Assembly (NCBI GenBank): GCA_011364925.1
Contig: RDOA01000005.1
Location: 56,898 to 120,897 of the forward strand
Length of the DNA stretch: 64,000 nucleotides
DNA from: Promethearchaeota archaeon
Lineage (GTDB): Archaea > Asgardarchaeota > Lokiarchaeia > Sigyniarchaeales > SOKP01
Reading direction: 5' to 3'
The notes below the pieces were generated by a model. That model worked only from the letters and a program-made list of their open reading frames with translations, searched no databases and was not told the origin of the DNA. Position numbers and translations under genes: made by a program. Below, piece after piece: positions 5,514-63,360 of this stretch; position 1 is the first letter of the stretch; every line of letters starts with the position of its first letter.

Positions 5514-6110
5514 TCATACTAATAATTGCAGATTGATTTTGATTAAACGAATCGTGGAAGATGCTAAATATGAGCGATGTCCTAAGCTCAGATTTGTCAA
5601 ATTCATCTTTTTCAATTCATTATCAATTAGAAAATCACCGCTTTGATCTCCAATGAGAAATAATAAATTATCTTTTGACTTCAATTTCCTAAACTCTTTT
5701 CTATAATCATTACCAGATTCGTTTAACACATATATTTTATAATTTCGTTTAGTAAAATCCCTAATTGCATCAAAAATACTTTTCTCGGAGTATATTACTG
5801 ATTCAAGTGTTTTAGGGTGGTTTTCTGTTTTGGTCTTATTCTTAATCAAGCCTACAAAAGAATCTGTCAGTAAAATTTCATTTTTCGGAAAAGTCTCATT
5901 ATTTAGATAATTAGAATCAAAGATATATGTTCCATAATTATCAAGAAAAATCCAAATTTGAATATCTTTTTCAATTTCTTTTTCATTTAGAATAGCTGAT
6001 AAGACACATCTTGAAATAACATCAAGCCTTCCAGATGACCCCGGGATATCTTTGATATTATACTTACTGATGTTAACAGTTGCTGATTTTAAAAAATAGA
6101 TAATACTCAT
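5514..6110 (-). CDS. trmY: tRNA pseudouridine-54 N1-methyltransferase (SPOUT)
   Basis: GSSGRLDVISRC; FLIGDQ...LSLG SPOUT knot. Confidence 0.8.
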   Translation of the reverse strand: MSIIYFLKSATVNISKYNIKDIPGSSGRLDVISRCVLSAILNEKEIEKDIQIWIFLDNYGTYIFDSNYLNNETFPKNEILLTDSFVGLIKNKTKTENHPKTLESVIYSEKSIFDAIRDFTKRNYKIYVLNESGNDYRKEFRKLKSKDNLLFLIGDQSGDFLIDNELKKMNLTNLSLGHRSYLASSTIRLIKINLQLLV

Positions 6111-8942: not shown

Positions 8943-8964
8943 TGATGTGTTCTGACAAAATAGA

Positions 8965-8979
8965 ATAAGTTTTTTTAAC
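8965..8979 (+). promoter_or_regulatory. BRE/TATA-like promoter of the ncRNA
   Basis: AATAAGTTTTTTTAA ~22 nt before 9000; the same AGTTTTTTTAA form precedes tRNA-Phe (~49573) and tRNA-Gly (~34235). Confidence 0.5.
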
Positions 8980-8999: not shown

Positions 9000-9303
9000 G
9001 GGAAAATGATGATGGAGCATTAGCATATTCGAGGACGCGTATGATTAACCGTGATTACGCGTGCAATGTTATGCAAACATCCTGAATTTATTAATCAACA
9101 ATTTCCTGTAAAAATGGGCTCTTAATCTAGCAATGGTAATACCGTGCAATGAGATTTGAGTCAGTACCCAGGCAGGATACATGATTATGTCCCGAAAAGG
9201 CATAGAAATTAACGCCTAGCACGAGAGAACTTATTTGATTAATGGTATACCCATTGAGTGATAAATTTGCGTTAGTGCACTAGGCAACAATATATGCTGA
9301 TTT
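9000..9303 (+). ncRNA. Three-hairpin H/ACA guide RNA with terminal C/D boxes
   Basis: Hairpins 9023-9074, 9104-9177 and 9214-9285, each followed by ACA (9077, 9179, 9287); ATGATGA at 9006 and CTGA at 9297; pocket 1 is complementary to 23S UUGC-U-A-CCUCGA. Confidence 0.75.
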
Positions 9304-9328: not shown

Positions 9329-9799
9329 TTATAATAGGCTTATTGTATCCGAATTAAAAAGTTCTTTTAATTCTTTATTCATTTCTCCCGTTTCTTCTTG
9401 GAGATACCTGTCTAAAACAGTAGAAATCTTTTTAGAATATCTTTTCATTAAAGCCCTCACAAGCCCTATTTGGATGTTTTTATCTGTAGCAATACATAAT
9501 ACACCCTTTCCAACCTTGAGGGAGAAGATCATACCTTTAAAATATTCTGTGATTTGCAAATGAATATTTCCATATCCAAGTATGTATCCTTGTTCTTCTC
9601 CAGCAGTAAAAACAGCGCCTCCAATCGCTCCAATCTTTTCTACAGAGAGGTCATCTTCGTTTTTCAAGATGAACTTTGATTCACTCATGATGGTTATTCC
9701 CGTATCGTCTATAATTATAGCATATTTTAAGCCTGGAGTGCTATTAATAATTTCTTTTAAAAGATTTTTTAAAATACGCTCATCTTGGGAATAACTCAA
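9329..9799 (-). CDS. Roadblock/LC7 (LAMTOR-like) protein
   Basis: YAIIIDDTGITI...IGAIGGAVF...GVLCIATD..IQIGLVR roadblock pattern. Confidence 0.82.
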   Translation of the reverse strand: MSYSQDERILKNLLKEIINSTPGLKYAIIIDDTGITIMSESKFILKNEDDLSVEKIGAIGGAVFTAGEEQGYILGYGNIHLQITEYFKGMIFSLKVGKGVLCIATDKNIQIGLVRALMKRYSKKISTVLDRYLQEETGEMNKELKELFNSDTISLL

Positions 9800-9971: not shown

Positions 9972-10346
9972 TTAAAATAATTCTTGCGCTCTAATTAGCG
10001 TTTTTAAGGGTTTTACTCCACTTTTATTATAATTTGACTTTTCTAATAGAATAAATAGTCTGATCCTCTTCGCTTTATCAATATCAAATTTCAATTGAAC
10101 CAAGTTTGGATCATTAAGTAAGTCTTTATTTTCTTTGTTTTTAGTAACTGCCCATAGTGCTAATTTGTTTTCATGAATCCAAAGTCGTTTTGAGATGTCT
10201 GACCCTATTGGAAATCCATTTTTGTCCGTTATCACCCCCGCAACAAAGTTTGGGAAGTAATTTTTGATTTGTTTTAAAAAATAATTGACCTCAATTTGAT
10301 TAATAAGCCTGTTATTCTCTCGTTTCATATAATCATACCTACACAA
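9972..10346 (-). CDS. Divergent roadblock-like protein
   Basis: FVAGVITDKNGFPIGS motif. Confidence 0.55.
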   Translation of the reverse strand: MCRYDYMKRENNRLINQIEVNYFLKQIKNYFPNFVAGVITDKNGFPIGSDISKRLWIHENKLALWAVTKNKENKDLLNDPNLVQLKFDIDKAKRIRLFILLEKSNYNKSGVKPLKTLIRAQELF

Positions 10347-11491: not shown

Positions 11492-11740
11492 CTAACGCAT
11501 TTTTGCGTAAAGGTTACCACTTGGATTAAAGTTCATACTGGGAATAATTTTCATTGAGATGAATGGGAGAGTTATTGGTCCAAAGATTTCTTTAATAAAA
11601 CCAATTTCAACAAATTCTTCTGTGAAAACTGGTTTGTTGGAAATCTTTTCTAGGCTTTTATTCCATTTCTTTGCTCTAAATATATGATGTTTTTTAGACA
11701 TTCCGAGATAATTTAGGTTCAGTTTTATATATTTTTGCAA
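11492..11740 (-). CDS. gar1: Gar1/Naf1 family H/ACA RNP subunit
   Basis: IGFIKEIFGPITLPF motif; conserved gar1-tfb linkage. Confidence 0.8.
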   Translation of the reverse strand: MQKYIKLNLNYLGMSKKHHIFRAKKWNKSLEKISNKPVFTEEFVEIGFIKEIFGPITLPFISMKIIPSMNFNPSGNLYAKMR

Positions 11741-11874: not shown

Positions 11875-12978
11875 CTAAATAAAATACTTCTGTAACTGAT
11901 ATTTTAACAAGCAATTACAAGGAACTTCTGATTTAATTTTTATCAAACAGTTAACATCTTGAGTTAGAACAAATTCTTCTAGCGTTTTGCTCATTAAGGT
12001 GTTACATTCTCTTTTTAGACAATTGTGAATACCTTTCTTAGTTCCTGCACCTGAAGGAGAAGAAATAATTCTTACTGATTTTAATACATCGTTATCTCTA
12101 TATGCCTTTATCAAACATTTAAACAACGAGTAAAACCACGGAGGTCGATATCTATTCTGATAAAAAAGATATTCAACAAGAGAGTTCTTCTGAATATTTA
12201 AAGGATTAATTGAAATAGTATTTACTTTCAACTTTGCTAACGCTAGGATAGACTCAACGCAGTCTTCTATCGCAGTCTGCTCATTTAGGAATGGTGGCTT
12301 GAATAGCAAATATACTCTAACTCCGATATCGTGCTCGCTACAAAGTTGGAGCGCATTTAAGAAATCTTTAAAATTTAAACCTTTATTAATGTAATTGTTT
12401 CTTATGTAATCATTTACGGTTTCTAAACCAATCGCAACTTCAGTGTATTTATTTGGTAAGACTTTTTTTATCTTTTTTAATTTTTCGACAGTTATATATT
12501 CGACTCGGGATTCAACCACAATTTCGATAATTTTAGGTATCGTTGCTATTTTCTTGTAAATAAATTCTCGAACTTCTTCTGATATTTCGTTATCATCAAA
12601 AAAGCTTCCAGAATTAAAAATTTTGATAATAAAATCATCTTCATCTGTTATAATATCATTTAACTTCTCTTTGAAGGCATAATCTATTTGATTCATTATG
12701 TGAATTTGGTCTATTTTTTCTATTGTAGAATCTTGGATGTATCCACACATAGAACAACCCCCAGAATCCCCTAAAGCCCAGCTACAGCCTTTGGTTCTTA
12801 AAATTATAGTGAATTCCTTACCTTTTTTTTTTAATAATCTATCTTCTTTTATCCAGAAACTTACCGGCTTATCTAATTGTATCTGTGTAAAACTTTTTTT
12901 GCCTTTTATTGATTTAAATCTAAAATCTTTAATTTTTTCAATGAGTTGTAAATTTATATTAAATTTTTTCGTAGACAT
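11875..12978 (-). CDS. Archaeosine biosynthesis radical SAM protein RaSEA
   Basis: ILRTKGCSW..GGCSMCGY, NSGSFFD, LLFKPPFL, YRPPW. Confidence 0.88.
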   Translation of the reverse strand: MSTKKFNINLQLIEKIKDFRFKSIKGKKSFTQIQLDKPVSFWIKEDRLLKKKGKEFTIILRTKGCSWALGDSGGCSMCGYIQDSTIEKIDQIHIMNQIDYAFKEKLNDIITDEDDFIIKIFNSGSFFDDNEISEEVREFIYKKIATIPKIIEIVVESRVEYITVEKLKKIKKVLPNKYTEVAIGLETVNDYIRNNYINKGLNFKDFLNALQLCSEHDIGVRVYLLFKPPFLNEQTAIEDCVESILALAKLKVNTISINPLNIQKNSLVEYLFYQNRYRPPWFYSLFKCLIKAYRDNDVLKSVRIISSPSGAGTKKGIHNCLKRECNTLMSKTLEEFVLTQDVNCLIKIKSEVPCNCLLKYQLQKYFI

Positions 12979-15046
12979 TTAGAATCTTACCTGTTTTAGA
13001 ATTCTTAATATAATTTGAACCTACAATTAAACTGCCTAATCCAATCAAACTTTCTTCTTGTTTATTAAATATTAAAACAATATCCTTTGGTACGAGATTT
13101 TGACTGAAATCAATAATTCCTGGGCGAAATAAAGTGTTTCCATTGATGTGTTCCCCGTCAAATACAATAATATTCTTCTTTTCTTCGAATGGTAATAACC
13201 TATTTGCGCCGTCAAGACTTAATTCAATTTGACCCGATTTATTATTGAAATTACCTAGTTTCTTTCGATTTTTTTGATCTATTATTTCAATCTGATCATT
13301 ATTTTTATTTTTCCATGTCTTTATCCCATTGAGAAATATATTGTTTCCCGATTTTGGACCAAATTGATAATCAATTATTTTAATAAACTTACGAGTCCAA
13401 GTTTTCAAGAAGTTTTTATTTTCAGGAATATTAAGTTCAAGTCCGGCGGACTCTTTTAAAGACTTTATTTTCTTCTCGAAAGACAGCAAAGAATCCTTAT
13501 TTGTAAGATTTCCTTCAATATCACTAAAATAAAATTTATGGTTTAATTGCCTCTTAGCTTCGTCTACTATTTCTAAGTATCCTGAGTCCTTTAAGTGACA
13601 CAATACAGGAATTCTATCGTCATACTTCTTCAATAAGGAAATGAGCATATTTGAGGCAATCTCTATTTCTTCCTTATCCCATTCTCCTGTCACAGAGATA
13701 TCATAAGAATTAACTGGATAAATATTTTCTAGTTGTCTTGGGATTGCTCCCAGTGGCGAAGTTATAATAATTTCTTGAAAATCTGGAAAATCTGGAAATT
13801 TTCTTATTACACTTTGAAATTTCCTATGGGATTTCGATTCGGAGTAAGGCTTTTTTGCTGAACACGGTAAAAGTATAATTAATTTCGTCCATACTTCCGG
13901 TGTAAAGTTCTTTATAACGCGATCCCGGAATTCTTGGAAATCTGGTCTGCAATACGAAGAGAGCCCAAAACTTTTAATAACTTTACTTGTTTGAGTAATT
14001 GGGGTCTCAAATCTCAATACATTAAAATATTGCTTATCAAGTATTCTTAAAGTAGAGATAATATTTACATCATCAAAGGTAGATTTTTCAATAAAACCTC
14101 TAAAATCTTCAATCCTCATGTATAATTTAATTTTATGCATATATGTGTATGCTGAAATAATATTGTGAAGAGTTAATTGTTCCAACTTTTCAGATGAATA
14201 TTTGTCAGTAAGATTGTATTTTAAACTTCGCTTACAAATAGCGCACGAACAAGGAAAATATTTTATTTTGTAAATTGGAAGTAAATATTCGATAGTATCG
14301 TAGAAATTTTCAGTTGATAAATACAATAAATAAGAACAATCTATAAGATCAATCCCAAGGTAGATTAAAATCGGATAATATTTCGGGATAATTCTGCCAG
14401 AAGCCATTAAAACTAGGTTATTATCGAGTTCTTTTTTGATTTTAAATATCACGCTTAATATTTGCCTAAAATTACTAAAGTTGTCAAAAAGATCTACTAA
14501 ATTAAGTATTCTCACATTCTCATTATTCTTAATTAAAGGAATGTAAAGATCAAATAACTCATAATATTCATAGATCTTAATAGATAATCCAAAATCTAAA
14601 CCATTATATTTTTTTAGAATTTCATTAGATTCACTTATAAAATTATTAATTTCTTCTATAGCAAATTCCTTGTTAATTGCCGTTGTCGCAATATTGAATG
14701 GGATAGAAGGTATAATGTTATCTTCTTGAAAGATATCAACATTAGAAGCTAATTTTTCCTTAAAAAACTCCATTGAACCATTATGTGTGTATATGAAACC
14801 AGTTTGTTTGAATTTGTCTCTTAAAAATTCTATCTTTAAATAAAAATCTTTTAAAATTAGGAATATTTCGTGATCTTCAAATTCCTCAAGAAAGTTAACA
14901 TTATTCATTAAACTTTTCTTCATCGGAACAATAATATTCGGCGTCGATATAAACTTTTTCGTCTCTTTTGAACATACTATTCTTCCGATTCTTGAGAACC
15001 CTACGCTTTTTGTAAGTAATTCAAAAAAGTAATTCATGGTTTTCAA
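12959..15046 (-). CDS. arcS: Archaeosine synthase alpha subunit (TgtA2/ArcS; TGT + PUA)
   Basis: LLPCSAKKPYSESKSH, TSPLGAIPR, YDISVTGEW; C-terminal PUA domain. Confidence 0.85.
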   Translation of the reverse strand: MKTMNYFFELLTKSVGFSRIGRIVCSKETKKFISTPNIIVPMKKSLMNNVNFLEEFEDHEIFLILKDFYLKIEFLRDKFKQTGFIYTHNGSMEFFKEKLASNVDIFQEDNIIPSIPFNIATTAINKEFAIEEINNFISESNEILKKYNGLDFGLSIKIYEYYELFDLYIPLIKNNENVRILNLVDLFDNFSNFRQILSVIFKIKKELDNNLVLMASGRIIPKYYPILIYLGIDLIDCSYLLYLSTENFYDTIEYLLPIYKIKYFPCSCAICKRSLKYNLTDKYSSEKLEQLTLHNIISAYTYMHKIKLYMRIEDFRGFIEKSTFDDVNIISTLRILDKQYFNVLRFETPITQTSKVIKSFGLSSYCRPDFQEFRDRVIKNFTPEVWTKLIILLPCSAKKPYSESKSHRKFQSVIRKFPDFPDFQEIIITSPLGAIPRQLENIYPVNSYDISVTGEWDKEEIEIASNMLISLLKKYDDRIPVLCHLKDSGYLEIVDEAKRQLNHKFYFSDIEGNLTNKDSLLSFEKKIKSLKESAGLELNIPENKNFLKTWTRKFIKIIDYQFGPKSGNNIFLNGIKTWKNKNNDQIEIIDQKNRKKLGNFNNKSGQIELSLDGANRLLPFEEKKNIIVFDGEHINGNTLFRPGIIDFSQNLVPKDIVLIFNKQEESLIGLGSLIVGSNYIKNSKTGKILNVYEKI

Positions 15047-49169: not shown

Positions 49170-49609
49170 CATTCGCATACATGTCTGGTCTATTGACTAG
49201 TAATTAGCTAGAATATTAAAAAACTAAATATTACCACTTTTTTTATTTTTTGAGATATCATAATTGCTGAATAAAATCAAAATCTATAAGTAATAAAGGA
49301 AGAATTTGGTTTGAAAATGTTTGGAGAAAAAACTTTTTTGGTGAAATTATTGATACACCAGAAGAATTTATTTAATATTTCTGCAATAGTGTCAATACCG
49401 TCTATAAGACAGCAATGAATAAGGATAATCTAAAGCAACAGCTTTCAAAAATAATTTGATTTCTAACTGCTCTTAAAGGAAGACTTAATCGTGTTTGCGA
49501 AACTAAGTAGAAAACTAAAAAGATTTTTATGACATTCTATACTTTTAATTCTATCTTAATTAGGTTTAAAAGAGTTTTTTTAATTCCAAGTTAAGAACAG
49601 CACTAATTC

Positions 49610-49715
49610 GCCAAGGTGGCGTAGTAGCGACCGTATATCAGGGTCCTGCGAAACCCGGGAACGCACCAGACTGAAGATCTGGGTATCGAGGGTTCAAATC
49701 CCTCCCTTGGCACCA
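49610..49715 (+). tRNA. tRNA-Phe(GAA) with ~27-29 nt D-loop intron; CCA encoded
   Basis: GCCAAGG/CCTTGGC-ACCA, D stem GCGT/ACGC, anticodon arm CCAGA-CTGAAGA-TCTGG. Confidence 0.9.
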
Positions 49716-49724
49716 TAAATCTTC

Positions 49725-63227: not shown

Positions 63228-63360
63228 TGGGCCTGGCAGGATTCGAACCTGCGACTTTGGGTCGATGGATATTTCCACCTGACATCCCAGTCCGAAGCCG
63301 GGTACCCCTCGGATTGTGCAATAAGTTTTCACACAATTATCCAGACTAGATTACAGGCCC
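63228..63360 (-). tRNA. tRNA-Arg(TCG) with two introns (63308-63337 at 21/22; 63256-63283 at 45/46)
   Basis: Removing two BHB-bounded inserts gives a 75-nt cloverleaf with anticodon arm CCCGG-CTTCGGA-CTGGG. Confidence 0.88.

What the first reader, a model, noticed from the sequence alone, without database searches (positions are those of the whole stretch)
9000..9303. Unannotated ~300-nt RNA gene: triple H/ACA hairpins enclosed by box C and box D (scaRNA-like hybrid) in an Asgard archaeon
Seen: an ORF-free spacer between convergent genes, richer in GC than its flanks, behind a promoter like those of the tRNAs. It folds into three hairpins with internal pockets: GCATA/TATGC + ACGCGTA/TACGCGT; TCCTGT/GCAGGA + GGCTC/GAGTC; GCCTAG/CTAGGC. 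Each is followed by ACA about 14-18 nt below the upper stem. Hairpins 1 and 3 carry (A/T)TGATTA..GTGA K-turn-like motifs. The RNA starts with a perfect C box (ATGATGA, 9006) and ends with a D box (CTGA, 9297). There is an internal CTGA (9082) and ATGATTA (9181). Known: archaeal H/ACA RNAs have 1-3 L7Ae-binding hairpins, and composite C/D-H/ACA RNAs are typical of eukaryotic scaRNAs such as U85. Inference: a hybrid guide RNA, or an H/ACA RNA capped by a terminal C/D K-turn. gar1 lies ~2.2 kb away.
Basis: partly seen in the sequence, partly recalled or inferred. Interest (0 to 1): 0.9.

Follow-up and report, generated by a model that had tools for sequence, protein, structure and literature searches.

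The report
Clamped three-hairpin H/ACA guide RNA, Asgard
The gap holds a real, uncatalogued 300-base RNA that most likely tells the cell which uridines of the large ribosomal RNA to turn into pseudouridine at three key sites; it is a diverged member of a known archaeal guide family with extra clamping helices, not a two-function hybrid like eukaryotic scaRNAs.

Summary
Real RNA gene at about 9000-9303 (+). It is nearly always single-copy and found in 108 of 117 genomes of its family, most Asgard families sampled and two Hadarchaeota, with covarying stems and a conserved TATA box. It is a three-hairpin box H/ACA guide. The pockets fit 23S uridines at E. coli-equivalent 2496, 2554 and 1915/1917, and pockets 2 and 3 change in step with rRNA across lineages. 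Distant homologues match Rfam HgcG (Pab40/Afu4) at E down to 3e-11, below its cut-off. The hybrid reading fails. The conserved C-like element is AUGANGGA at 9009. It pairs with the internal CUGA (9082) into a K-turn that closes hairpin 1 only, and that D varies (CUGA in 14 of 48). AUGAUUA and the terminal CUGA belong to strands of helices clamping hairpins 2 and 3 (terminal CUGA in 13 of 48). No methylation guide was found. I found no description of the clamp architecture (each ACA inside a closing helix, the first a K-turn); literature access was partial. Targets were tested on congeners' 23S because the own 23S is unassembled. This scan found the same RNA family earlier in other Asgard genomes.

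The parts
8963..8978 (+). BRE/TATA-like promoter, about 25 nt upstream of the 5' GGG
   Evidence: Position-conserved A-rich plus TTT(A/T)(A/T)A tract in nearly all homologues while the spacer varies; start site inferred
9000..9303 (+). Three-hairpin box H/ACA guide RNA of the HgcG/Pab40/Afu4 lineage (ends inferred)
9000..9002 (+). 5' GGG pairing with CCC 9191-9193, closing domains 1 and 2 (family-level feature)
   Evidence: RNAalifold and pair counts, 94% paired, no two-sided change
9004..9016 (+). Bulged strand of the basal K-turn: C-stem 9004-07, bulge 9008-10, tandem GA 9011-12, then 9013-16 (the real C-like element)
   Evidence: G9011 and A9012 in 100% of 48 homologues; U-A, U-G and C-G exchange at 9007/9086
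9080..9089 (+).
   Evidence: G9084 98%, A9085 100%, U9083 only 42%; CUGA 14, CAGA 10, CGGA 7, UUGA 6, CCGA 5 of 48
9023..9079 (+). H/ACA motif 1: lower stem 9023-27/9070-74, pocket 9029-34 and 9063-66, upper stem 9035-41/9056-62, K-loop 9042-55, ACA 9077-79; predicted target 23S U2496 (E. coli numbering)
   Evidence: 4+6 Watson-Crick pairs with 2 unpaired nt; top site over 43 distinct pockets, 2 of 150 shuffles as good
9092..9097 (+).
   Evidence: Paired in 21 of 21 congeners; same position with different sequence in other families
9104..9181 (+). H/ACA motif 2: lower stem 9104-08/9173-77, pocket about 9113-19 and 9162-69, variant K-turn 9127-31/9146-53, ACA 9179-81; predicted target 23S U2554 (A-loop)
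   Evidence: 4+7 pairs with 3 unpaired nt; 1 of 150 shuffles as good; guide tracks rRNA across 8 genomes
9182..9187 (+). 3' strand of the helix clamping hairpin 2 (not a C' box)
9199..9204 (+). 5' strand of the helix clamping hairpin 3; pairs with 9293-9298
   Evidence: Both strands lost together in 4 of 21 congeners; one two-sided change
9214..9289 (+). H/ACA motif 3: lower stem 9214-22/9275-85, pocket 9223-30 and 9270-76, K-turn 9236-38/9257-62, ACA 9287-89; predicted target helix 69 U1915 and/or U1917
   Evidence: Top site across homologues but not significant alone (27 of 150 shuffles); compensatory guide-rRNA change in family f10; like HgcG motif 3
9293..9300 (+).
   Evidence: Terminal CUGA in 13 of 48 homologues
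11492..11740 (-). Gar1-like ORF next to tfb; context only
   Evidence: Pfam Gar1 E 7e-5, below cut-off; neighbours of the RNA differ in other families

Best explanation
A stand-alone, TATA-driven RNA of about 300 nt that is the Asgard form of the three-motif H/ACA sRNA HgcG (Pab40/Pf7/Afu4). Each hairpin binds L7Ae at its apical K-loop or K-turn and Cbf5-Nop10-Gar1 at its lower stem and ACA. Each pocket pairs with 23S rRNA on both sides of a uridine so that Cbf5 makes pseudouridine: motif 1 at 2496 (helix 89), motif 2 at 2554 (A-loop), motif 3 at 1915 and probably also 1917 (helix 69, by a 2-nt slide of the overlapping GUUA/UAGU strand). Unlike the Rfam HgcG model, the strand after each ACA folds back onto the strand before its hairpin. 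The first such clamp is an ordinary K-turn, probably a fourth L7Ae site that stabilises or orients the 5' domain, not a methylation guide. Shown by computation: conservation, fold, family link, pocket complementarity. Inferred: transcription as one molecule, protein binding, the pseudouridines themselves, and the role of the clamps.
For: Structure covaries. Nearly always one copy per genome; found in 108 of 117 family genomes and 77 of 149 phylum genomes. Homologues found with my model match RF00064 HgcG at E 3e-11 to 3e-8 with the same pocket strands. Targets mapped on E. coli 23S and ranked first across homologues. Guide-target covariation: motif 2 cognate 9.8 against non-cognate 7.4, 72 of 40320 permutations; the f10 motif 3 scores 15 on its own altered helix 69 against 7.5-8.5 on others. 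Several homologues have a canonical 2-nt pocket on U2554 (L090, L092, L110). Pab40 motifs 1 and 3 guide P. abyssi 2588 and 2016 (helix 69), and Afu4 motif 2 was first proposed for the equivalent of 2647 (PMC2377435); with an offset of 92 (my inference) these are 2496 and 2555. Yeast has pseudouridine at 2865, 2923, 2258 and 2260 (PMC5699541), the equivalent sites. Cbf5, Nop10 and L7Ae-family genes are in the genome. RNA-library contigs from three studies, plus a fourth run that is probably DNA, cover the RNA; one is identical over 9015-9273.
Against: The window's own RNA does not score against HgcG; the link is transitive and below the gathering score of 77. The own 23S is not assembled. On one sequence with free registers the pockets are not significant (12-42% of shuffles). 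Motifs 2 and 3 need 3-4 unpaired target bases here, which is atypical though described (PMC7075261). The Afu4 motif-2 assignment was disputed in PMC2377435. Contigs cannot show strand, ends or level, and DNA may be present in RNA libraries.
Confidence: 0.9

Rival explanations
1. True C/D-H/ACA hybrid (U85-like): terminal C and D boxes recruit Nop5-fibrillarin and guide 2'-O-methylation.
For: Perfect C and D text in this genome; nop5 and fibrillarin genes exist; H/ACA and C/D on one transcript occurs in Pab21.
Against: RUGAUGA in 8 of 48 and terminal CUGA in 13 of 48 homologues. The 14 nt before the basal D, terminal D and motif-1 D' pair with rRNA no better than shuffled guides (7.3-7.7 against 7.6-8.0 bp; 0-1 reach 10 bp). 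These stretches are stems or ACA.
Confidence: 0.03
2. H/ACA guide as described, but the basal K-turn is a real C/D core that binds L7Ae-Nop5-fibrillarin without guiding (scaffold or end protection).
For: C-like and D-like strands with tandem GA pairs and following G-C pairs, kept across about 13 Asgard families and in Hadarchaeota.
Against: The U-U position varies freely, whereas archaeal C and D boxes are highly conserved (PMC6009581). Family f12 swaps the K-turn for a plain helix and f10 lacks it, which fits a structural clamp.
Confidence: 0.1
3. Motif 3 mainly targets 23S U807 (canonical 4+6 pairing), or acts as a D' guide on domain I, rather than helix 69.
For: U807 is nearly tied in family f1 (9.2 against 9.65); an 11-bp match to 23S position 425.
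Against: Both rRNA sites change in other families while the pocket stays the same; where helix 69 changes (f10) the pocket follows it.
Confidence: 0.08
4. Three separate short RNAs, or a precursor cut into single hairpins, each clamp protecting its own ends.
For: Each domain is self-contained; some hits are one or two domains only (L164-L166, L144); Pab21 exists in two forms.
Against: One promoter; the 5' GGG pairs beyond domain 2; order is fixed across the phylum.
Confidence: 0.1

Closest known systems
HgcG / Pab40 / Pf7 / Pho40 / Afu4 three-motif H/ACA sRNA (Rfam RF00064; PMC2377435)
   Same: Three motifs in the same order, apical K-loop/K-turns, ACA boxes, matching pocket strands of motifs 1 and 3, targets 2496 and helix 69; distant homologues match the model at E 3e-11.
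   Different: AT-rich and below the Rfam cut-off; each ACA sits inside a closing helix and motif 1 is closed by an extra K-turn, neither of which is in the Rfam consensus; motif 2 points at 2554, whereas Pab40 motif 2 acts at P. abyssi 1932.
Haloferax volcanii sR-h45 stem-loop 2 (PMC7075261)
   Same: One pocket serving the two helix-69 uridines with more than two unpaired target bases.
   Different: Two hairpins with a long spacer; the other target differs; no basal K-turn described.
Pab21 / sR9 (Rfam RF00065)
   Same: Archaeal precedent for H/ACA and C/D features on one transcript.
   Different: There a full C/D sRNA follows the hairpin in tandem; here a K-turn encloses the hairpin and has no guide.
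Human U85 composite scaRNA (PMC4041459)
   Same: An H/ACA part nested between C-like and D-like strands.
   Different: U85 has a working terminal C/D core around the whole H/ACA domain and (from memory) guides methylation; here only hairpin 1 is enclosed, D is not conserved and no guide was found.
Yeast snR46, snR10, snR191 (PMC5699541)
   Same: Equivalent target sites (2865, 2923, 2258/2260).
   Different: Three separate two-hairpin RNAs with H boxes and no K-turns; homology to them was not tested.

Membership tests
Archaeal box H/ACA sRNA | 1-3 hairpins with lower stem, pocket and upper stem | tested here: met
Archaeal box H/ACA sRNA | ANA box 14-16 nt below the upper stem | tested here: met
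   14, 17 (16 without a bulged base) and 14/16 nt; ANA after motif 1 in 48 of 48
Archaeal box H/ACA sRNA | K-turn or K-loop above the upper stem | tested here: met
   Invariant GA/UGA in motifs 1 and 3; a variant with U or A in place of one G in motif 2
Archaeal box H/ACA sRNA | Bipartite complementarity around an rRNA uridine | tested here: met
   Motifs 1 and 2 significant across homologues; motif 3 supported by covariation in one family; congeners' 23S used
Archaeal box H/ACA sRNA | Binds Cbf5/Nop10/Gar1/L7Ae and makes pseudouridine | not testable with these tools
   Genes present
HgcG/Pab40 (RF00064) | Score at or above the gathering threshold of 77 bits | tested here: not met
   No hit in the own genome; best homologue 50.5 bits. 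So a diverged relative, not a member by Rfam's threshold.
HgcG/Pab40 (RF00064) | Three motifs in order, with targets 2496 and helix 69 for motifs 1 and 3 | tested here: met
   the P. abyssi to E. coli offset is inferred
Box C/D sRNA or composite C/D-H/ACA scaRNA | Conserved RUGAUGA and CUGA at the two ends, pairing with each other | tested here: not met
   8 of 48 and 13 of 48; the C-like strand pairs internally
Box C/D sRNA or composite C/D-H/ACA scaRNA | Internal D'/C' pair with single-stranded spacers | tested here: not met
   AUGAUUA is a helix strand; the spacers of the motif-1 K-loop are covarying stems
Box C/D sRNA or composite C/D-H/ACA scaRNA | Antisense element of about 10 nt or more before D or D' | tested here: not met
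   At shuffle level for three boxes; the motif-3 match is not kept outside family f1; tRNA targets not scanned
Box C/D sRNA or composite C/D-H/ACA scaRNA | Binds Nop5 and fibrillarin | not testable with these tools
   Genes present
Standard K-turn (basal element) | C-stem, 3-nt bulge, tandem G-A/A-G, NC stem | tested here: met
   definition in PMC4316175

The most novel reading that the evidence does not exclude
The K-turn closing hairpin 1 is a working C/D core that loads Nop5-fibrillarin onto an H/ACA particle, making this an archaeal dual RNP and a plausible forerunner of composite scaRNAs, even without a methylation guide.
Probability: 0.1. Interest if true: 0.8.

Novelty: new variant of a known kind. 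Interest (0 to 1): 0.42.

Why it matters
My literature searches found no described guide RNA or pseudouridine map for Asgard archaea. This RNA gives site-exact predictions, testable in cultured Promethearchaeia, at sites that yeast modifies with three separate snoRNAs. That bears on how the eukaryotic H/ACA set arose from few multi-hairpin archaeal guides. The clamp architecture puts ACA in an internal loop rather than a free tail; it is shared by Asgard and Hadarchaeota and widens what an H/ACA RNA can look like. It also warns that C/D-looking text at RNA ends can be an ordinary K-turn or a helix strand.

Tried and rejected
Rfam at gathering and E-value thresholds on the window: only chance C/D hits. 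HgcG on the own genome: none. Single-sequence target scan with free registers: not significant, replaced by the cross-homologue test. Methylation-guide scan: shuffle level. The motif-3 permutation test as a whole is weak (5040 of 40320) because most helix-69 sequences are identical; only family f10 is informative. gar1 proximity as support: neighbours differ in other families. The G014 23S is bacterial-type and was not used as a target. RNA runs: flanking genes have little or no cover in the four runs, but contigs cannot show absence, ends or level and there is no matched DNA run, so this is not used as evidence. Pab40 and Afu4 sequences in a supplement were illegible and the 2003 Afu-4 paper is not held, so absence of clamps there rests on the Rfam consensus. 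Pattern-scan hits in bacteria and in three other archaeal records did not score with the model. Scripts stopped early; I reran them or used only their printed part.

Full report
Observation. The spacer has no stop-free frame over 50 codons and is 38% GC against 31-32% in the flanking genes. Rfam has nothing there and the single-sequence fold is unremarkable (z -1.7), so the case rests on homologues.

Conservation and fold. BLAST found the region in 20 of 24 congeners. RNAalifold on 21 sequences recovers stems of all three hairpins and three extra helices. For my 69-pair structure 96% of cells pair and 17 pairs show two-sided changes, against 11.4 in shuffles and 5-8 when slid; kin are related, so this is not a probability. 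A covariance model finds it, nearly always once, in 108 of 117 genomes of the family, and a second model in 77 of 149 genomes of the phylum. Named records carrying it are labelled Promethearchaeota, Odin-, Hel-, Hermod-, Borr- and Thorarchaeota (labels as deposited), plus two Hadarchaeota. A TATA-like tract stays about 25 nt before the 5' GGG. RNA-library contigs from three studies, plus a fourth run that is probably DNA, cover the RNA, one identical over 9015-9273. Contigs do not prove transcription or a single transcript.

The boxes. The perfect C box at 9006 is not the conserved register: RUGAUGA is kept in 8 of 48 homologues. The invariant bases are G9011 and A9012 after a 3-nt bulge. They face G9084 and A9085, with GGA/UCC on one side and a C-stem on the other whose first pair exchanges U-A, U-G and C-G. 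This is a standard K-turn (PMC4316175) closing hairpin 1 and its ACA. Its D strand reads CUGA in only 14 of 48, whereas archaeal C and D boxes are highly conserved (PMC6009581). Family f12 replaces it with a plain helix and f10 lacks it. AUGAUUA at 9181 is the last base of ACA plus the 3' strand of a helix with 9092-97. The terminal CUGA overlaps the 3' strand of a helix with 9199-9204; both strands vanish together in four congeners and CUGA survives in 13 of 48. Other families keep these clamps with unrelated sequences. The stretches before the basal D, terminal D and motif-1 D' pair with rRNA at shuffle level. The hybrid reading therefore fails on three defining features.

Targets. The own 23S is unassembled, so congeners' rRNAs were used. 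Best sites map to E. coli 2496, 2554 and 1917. On one sequence with free registers these are not significant. Averaged over 43-44 distinct pockets, motifs 1 and 2 are (2 and 1 of 150 shuffles); motif 3 ranks helix 69 first but ties with U807. Other lineages decide it. The motif-2 pocket follows the A-loop sequence (cognate 9.8, non-cognate 7.4; 72 of 40320 permutations). In family f10 both motif-3 strands change with helix 69 (15 against 7.5-8.5), while the 807 and domain I matches decay as the pocket stays fixed. The invariant 3' strand holds both a register for U1915 (16 nt from ACA) and one for U1917 (14 nt), as in H. volcanii, where one pocket makes both (PMC7075261). Pockets with 3-4 unpaired bases are atypical but described there.

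Family. Homologues reached with my model match Rfam HgcG (Pab40) at E 3e-11 to 3e-8, 41-50 bits against a cut-off of 77, with the same pocket strands; the Hadarchaeota copies match more weakly. Pab40 motifs 1 and 3 guide P. abyssi 2588 and helix-69 2016, and Afu4 motif 2 was first assigned to the equivalent of 2647, later disputed (PMC2377435). An offset of 92, which I infer from the Pab35 sites and the RluE/C/B positions recalled from memory, makes these 2496 and 2555. Yeast 2826 equals E. coli 2457 and 2260 equals 1917, so yeast 2865, 2923 and 2258/2260 are the same sites. Cbf5, Nop10, L7Ae-family, a Gar1-like gene, Nop5 and fibrillarin are all in the genome.

Mechanism. Shown: fold, distribution, family link, complementarity. 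Inferred: each motif forms a Cbf5-Nop10-Gar1-L7Ae particle and modifies its uridine; the clamps and the extra K-turn protect ends or arrange the three particles. Confidence 0.9 for the guide function and about 0.1 that the basal K-turn also loads Nop5-fibrillarin.

Novelty. It works like, and is a diverged relative of, HgcG/Pab40, but falls below Rfam's threshold. I found no paper on Asgard guide RNAs or on the clamps, with the limits that the library is partial and the Afu-4 paper was not readable. Earlier scan notes reached the same family in other genomes; my reading, apart from the direct Rfam link, was fixed before I saw them. Verdict: new variant of a known kind, interest 0.42.

Noticed in passing
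23S of congeners (L034-L037, L039), helix 91 region about 25 nt before the A-loop: A 30-nt hairpin insertion flanked by a near-direct repeat is present in five congeners and absent in G052; a tiny intron or expansion segment next to the motif-2 target.
   Followed up: no
L174 (G146), L129 (G064), L178 (G182): 23S genes are interrupted just after helix 69 (G146, G064) or after the A-loop (G182), probably by introns beside the predicted target sites.
   Followed up: no
L177 (G211, family f12) A-loop: Position 2554 is C and the loop is divergent; the guide's 3' strand still follows it, so the target may be U2555 or lost.
   Followed up: partly
L107:168-276 (G045): A duplicated, slightly decayed copy of hairpin 3 alone lies about 500 nt from the full RNA.
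   Followed up: partly
L144, L164-L166 (families f30, f25): Shortened versions: motifs 1 and 3 only, or motif 3 alone; motif 2 seems lost.
   Followed up: partly
G014:C263 (L040): Bacterial-type rRNA operon in an Asgard bin, likely contamination.
   Followed up: partly
window 49600-49720 (+) and 63228-63360 (-): tRNA genes matched only in part by Rfam and not called by ARAGORN; they appear to carry insertions outside the usual intron position.
   Followed up: no
window 9329-9799 (-) and 9972-10346 (-): Two small ORFs between the RNA and tfb have no Pfam hit; the first looks roadblock-like from memory and stays beside the RNA in families f1 and f2.
   Followed up: no
window 11875-15046 (-), 5514-6110 (-): Radical SAM gene, TGT/PUA gene and a SPOUT-type RNA methyltransferase flank the region, an RNA-modification neighbourhood.
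   Followed up: no
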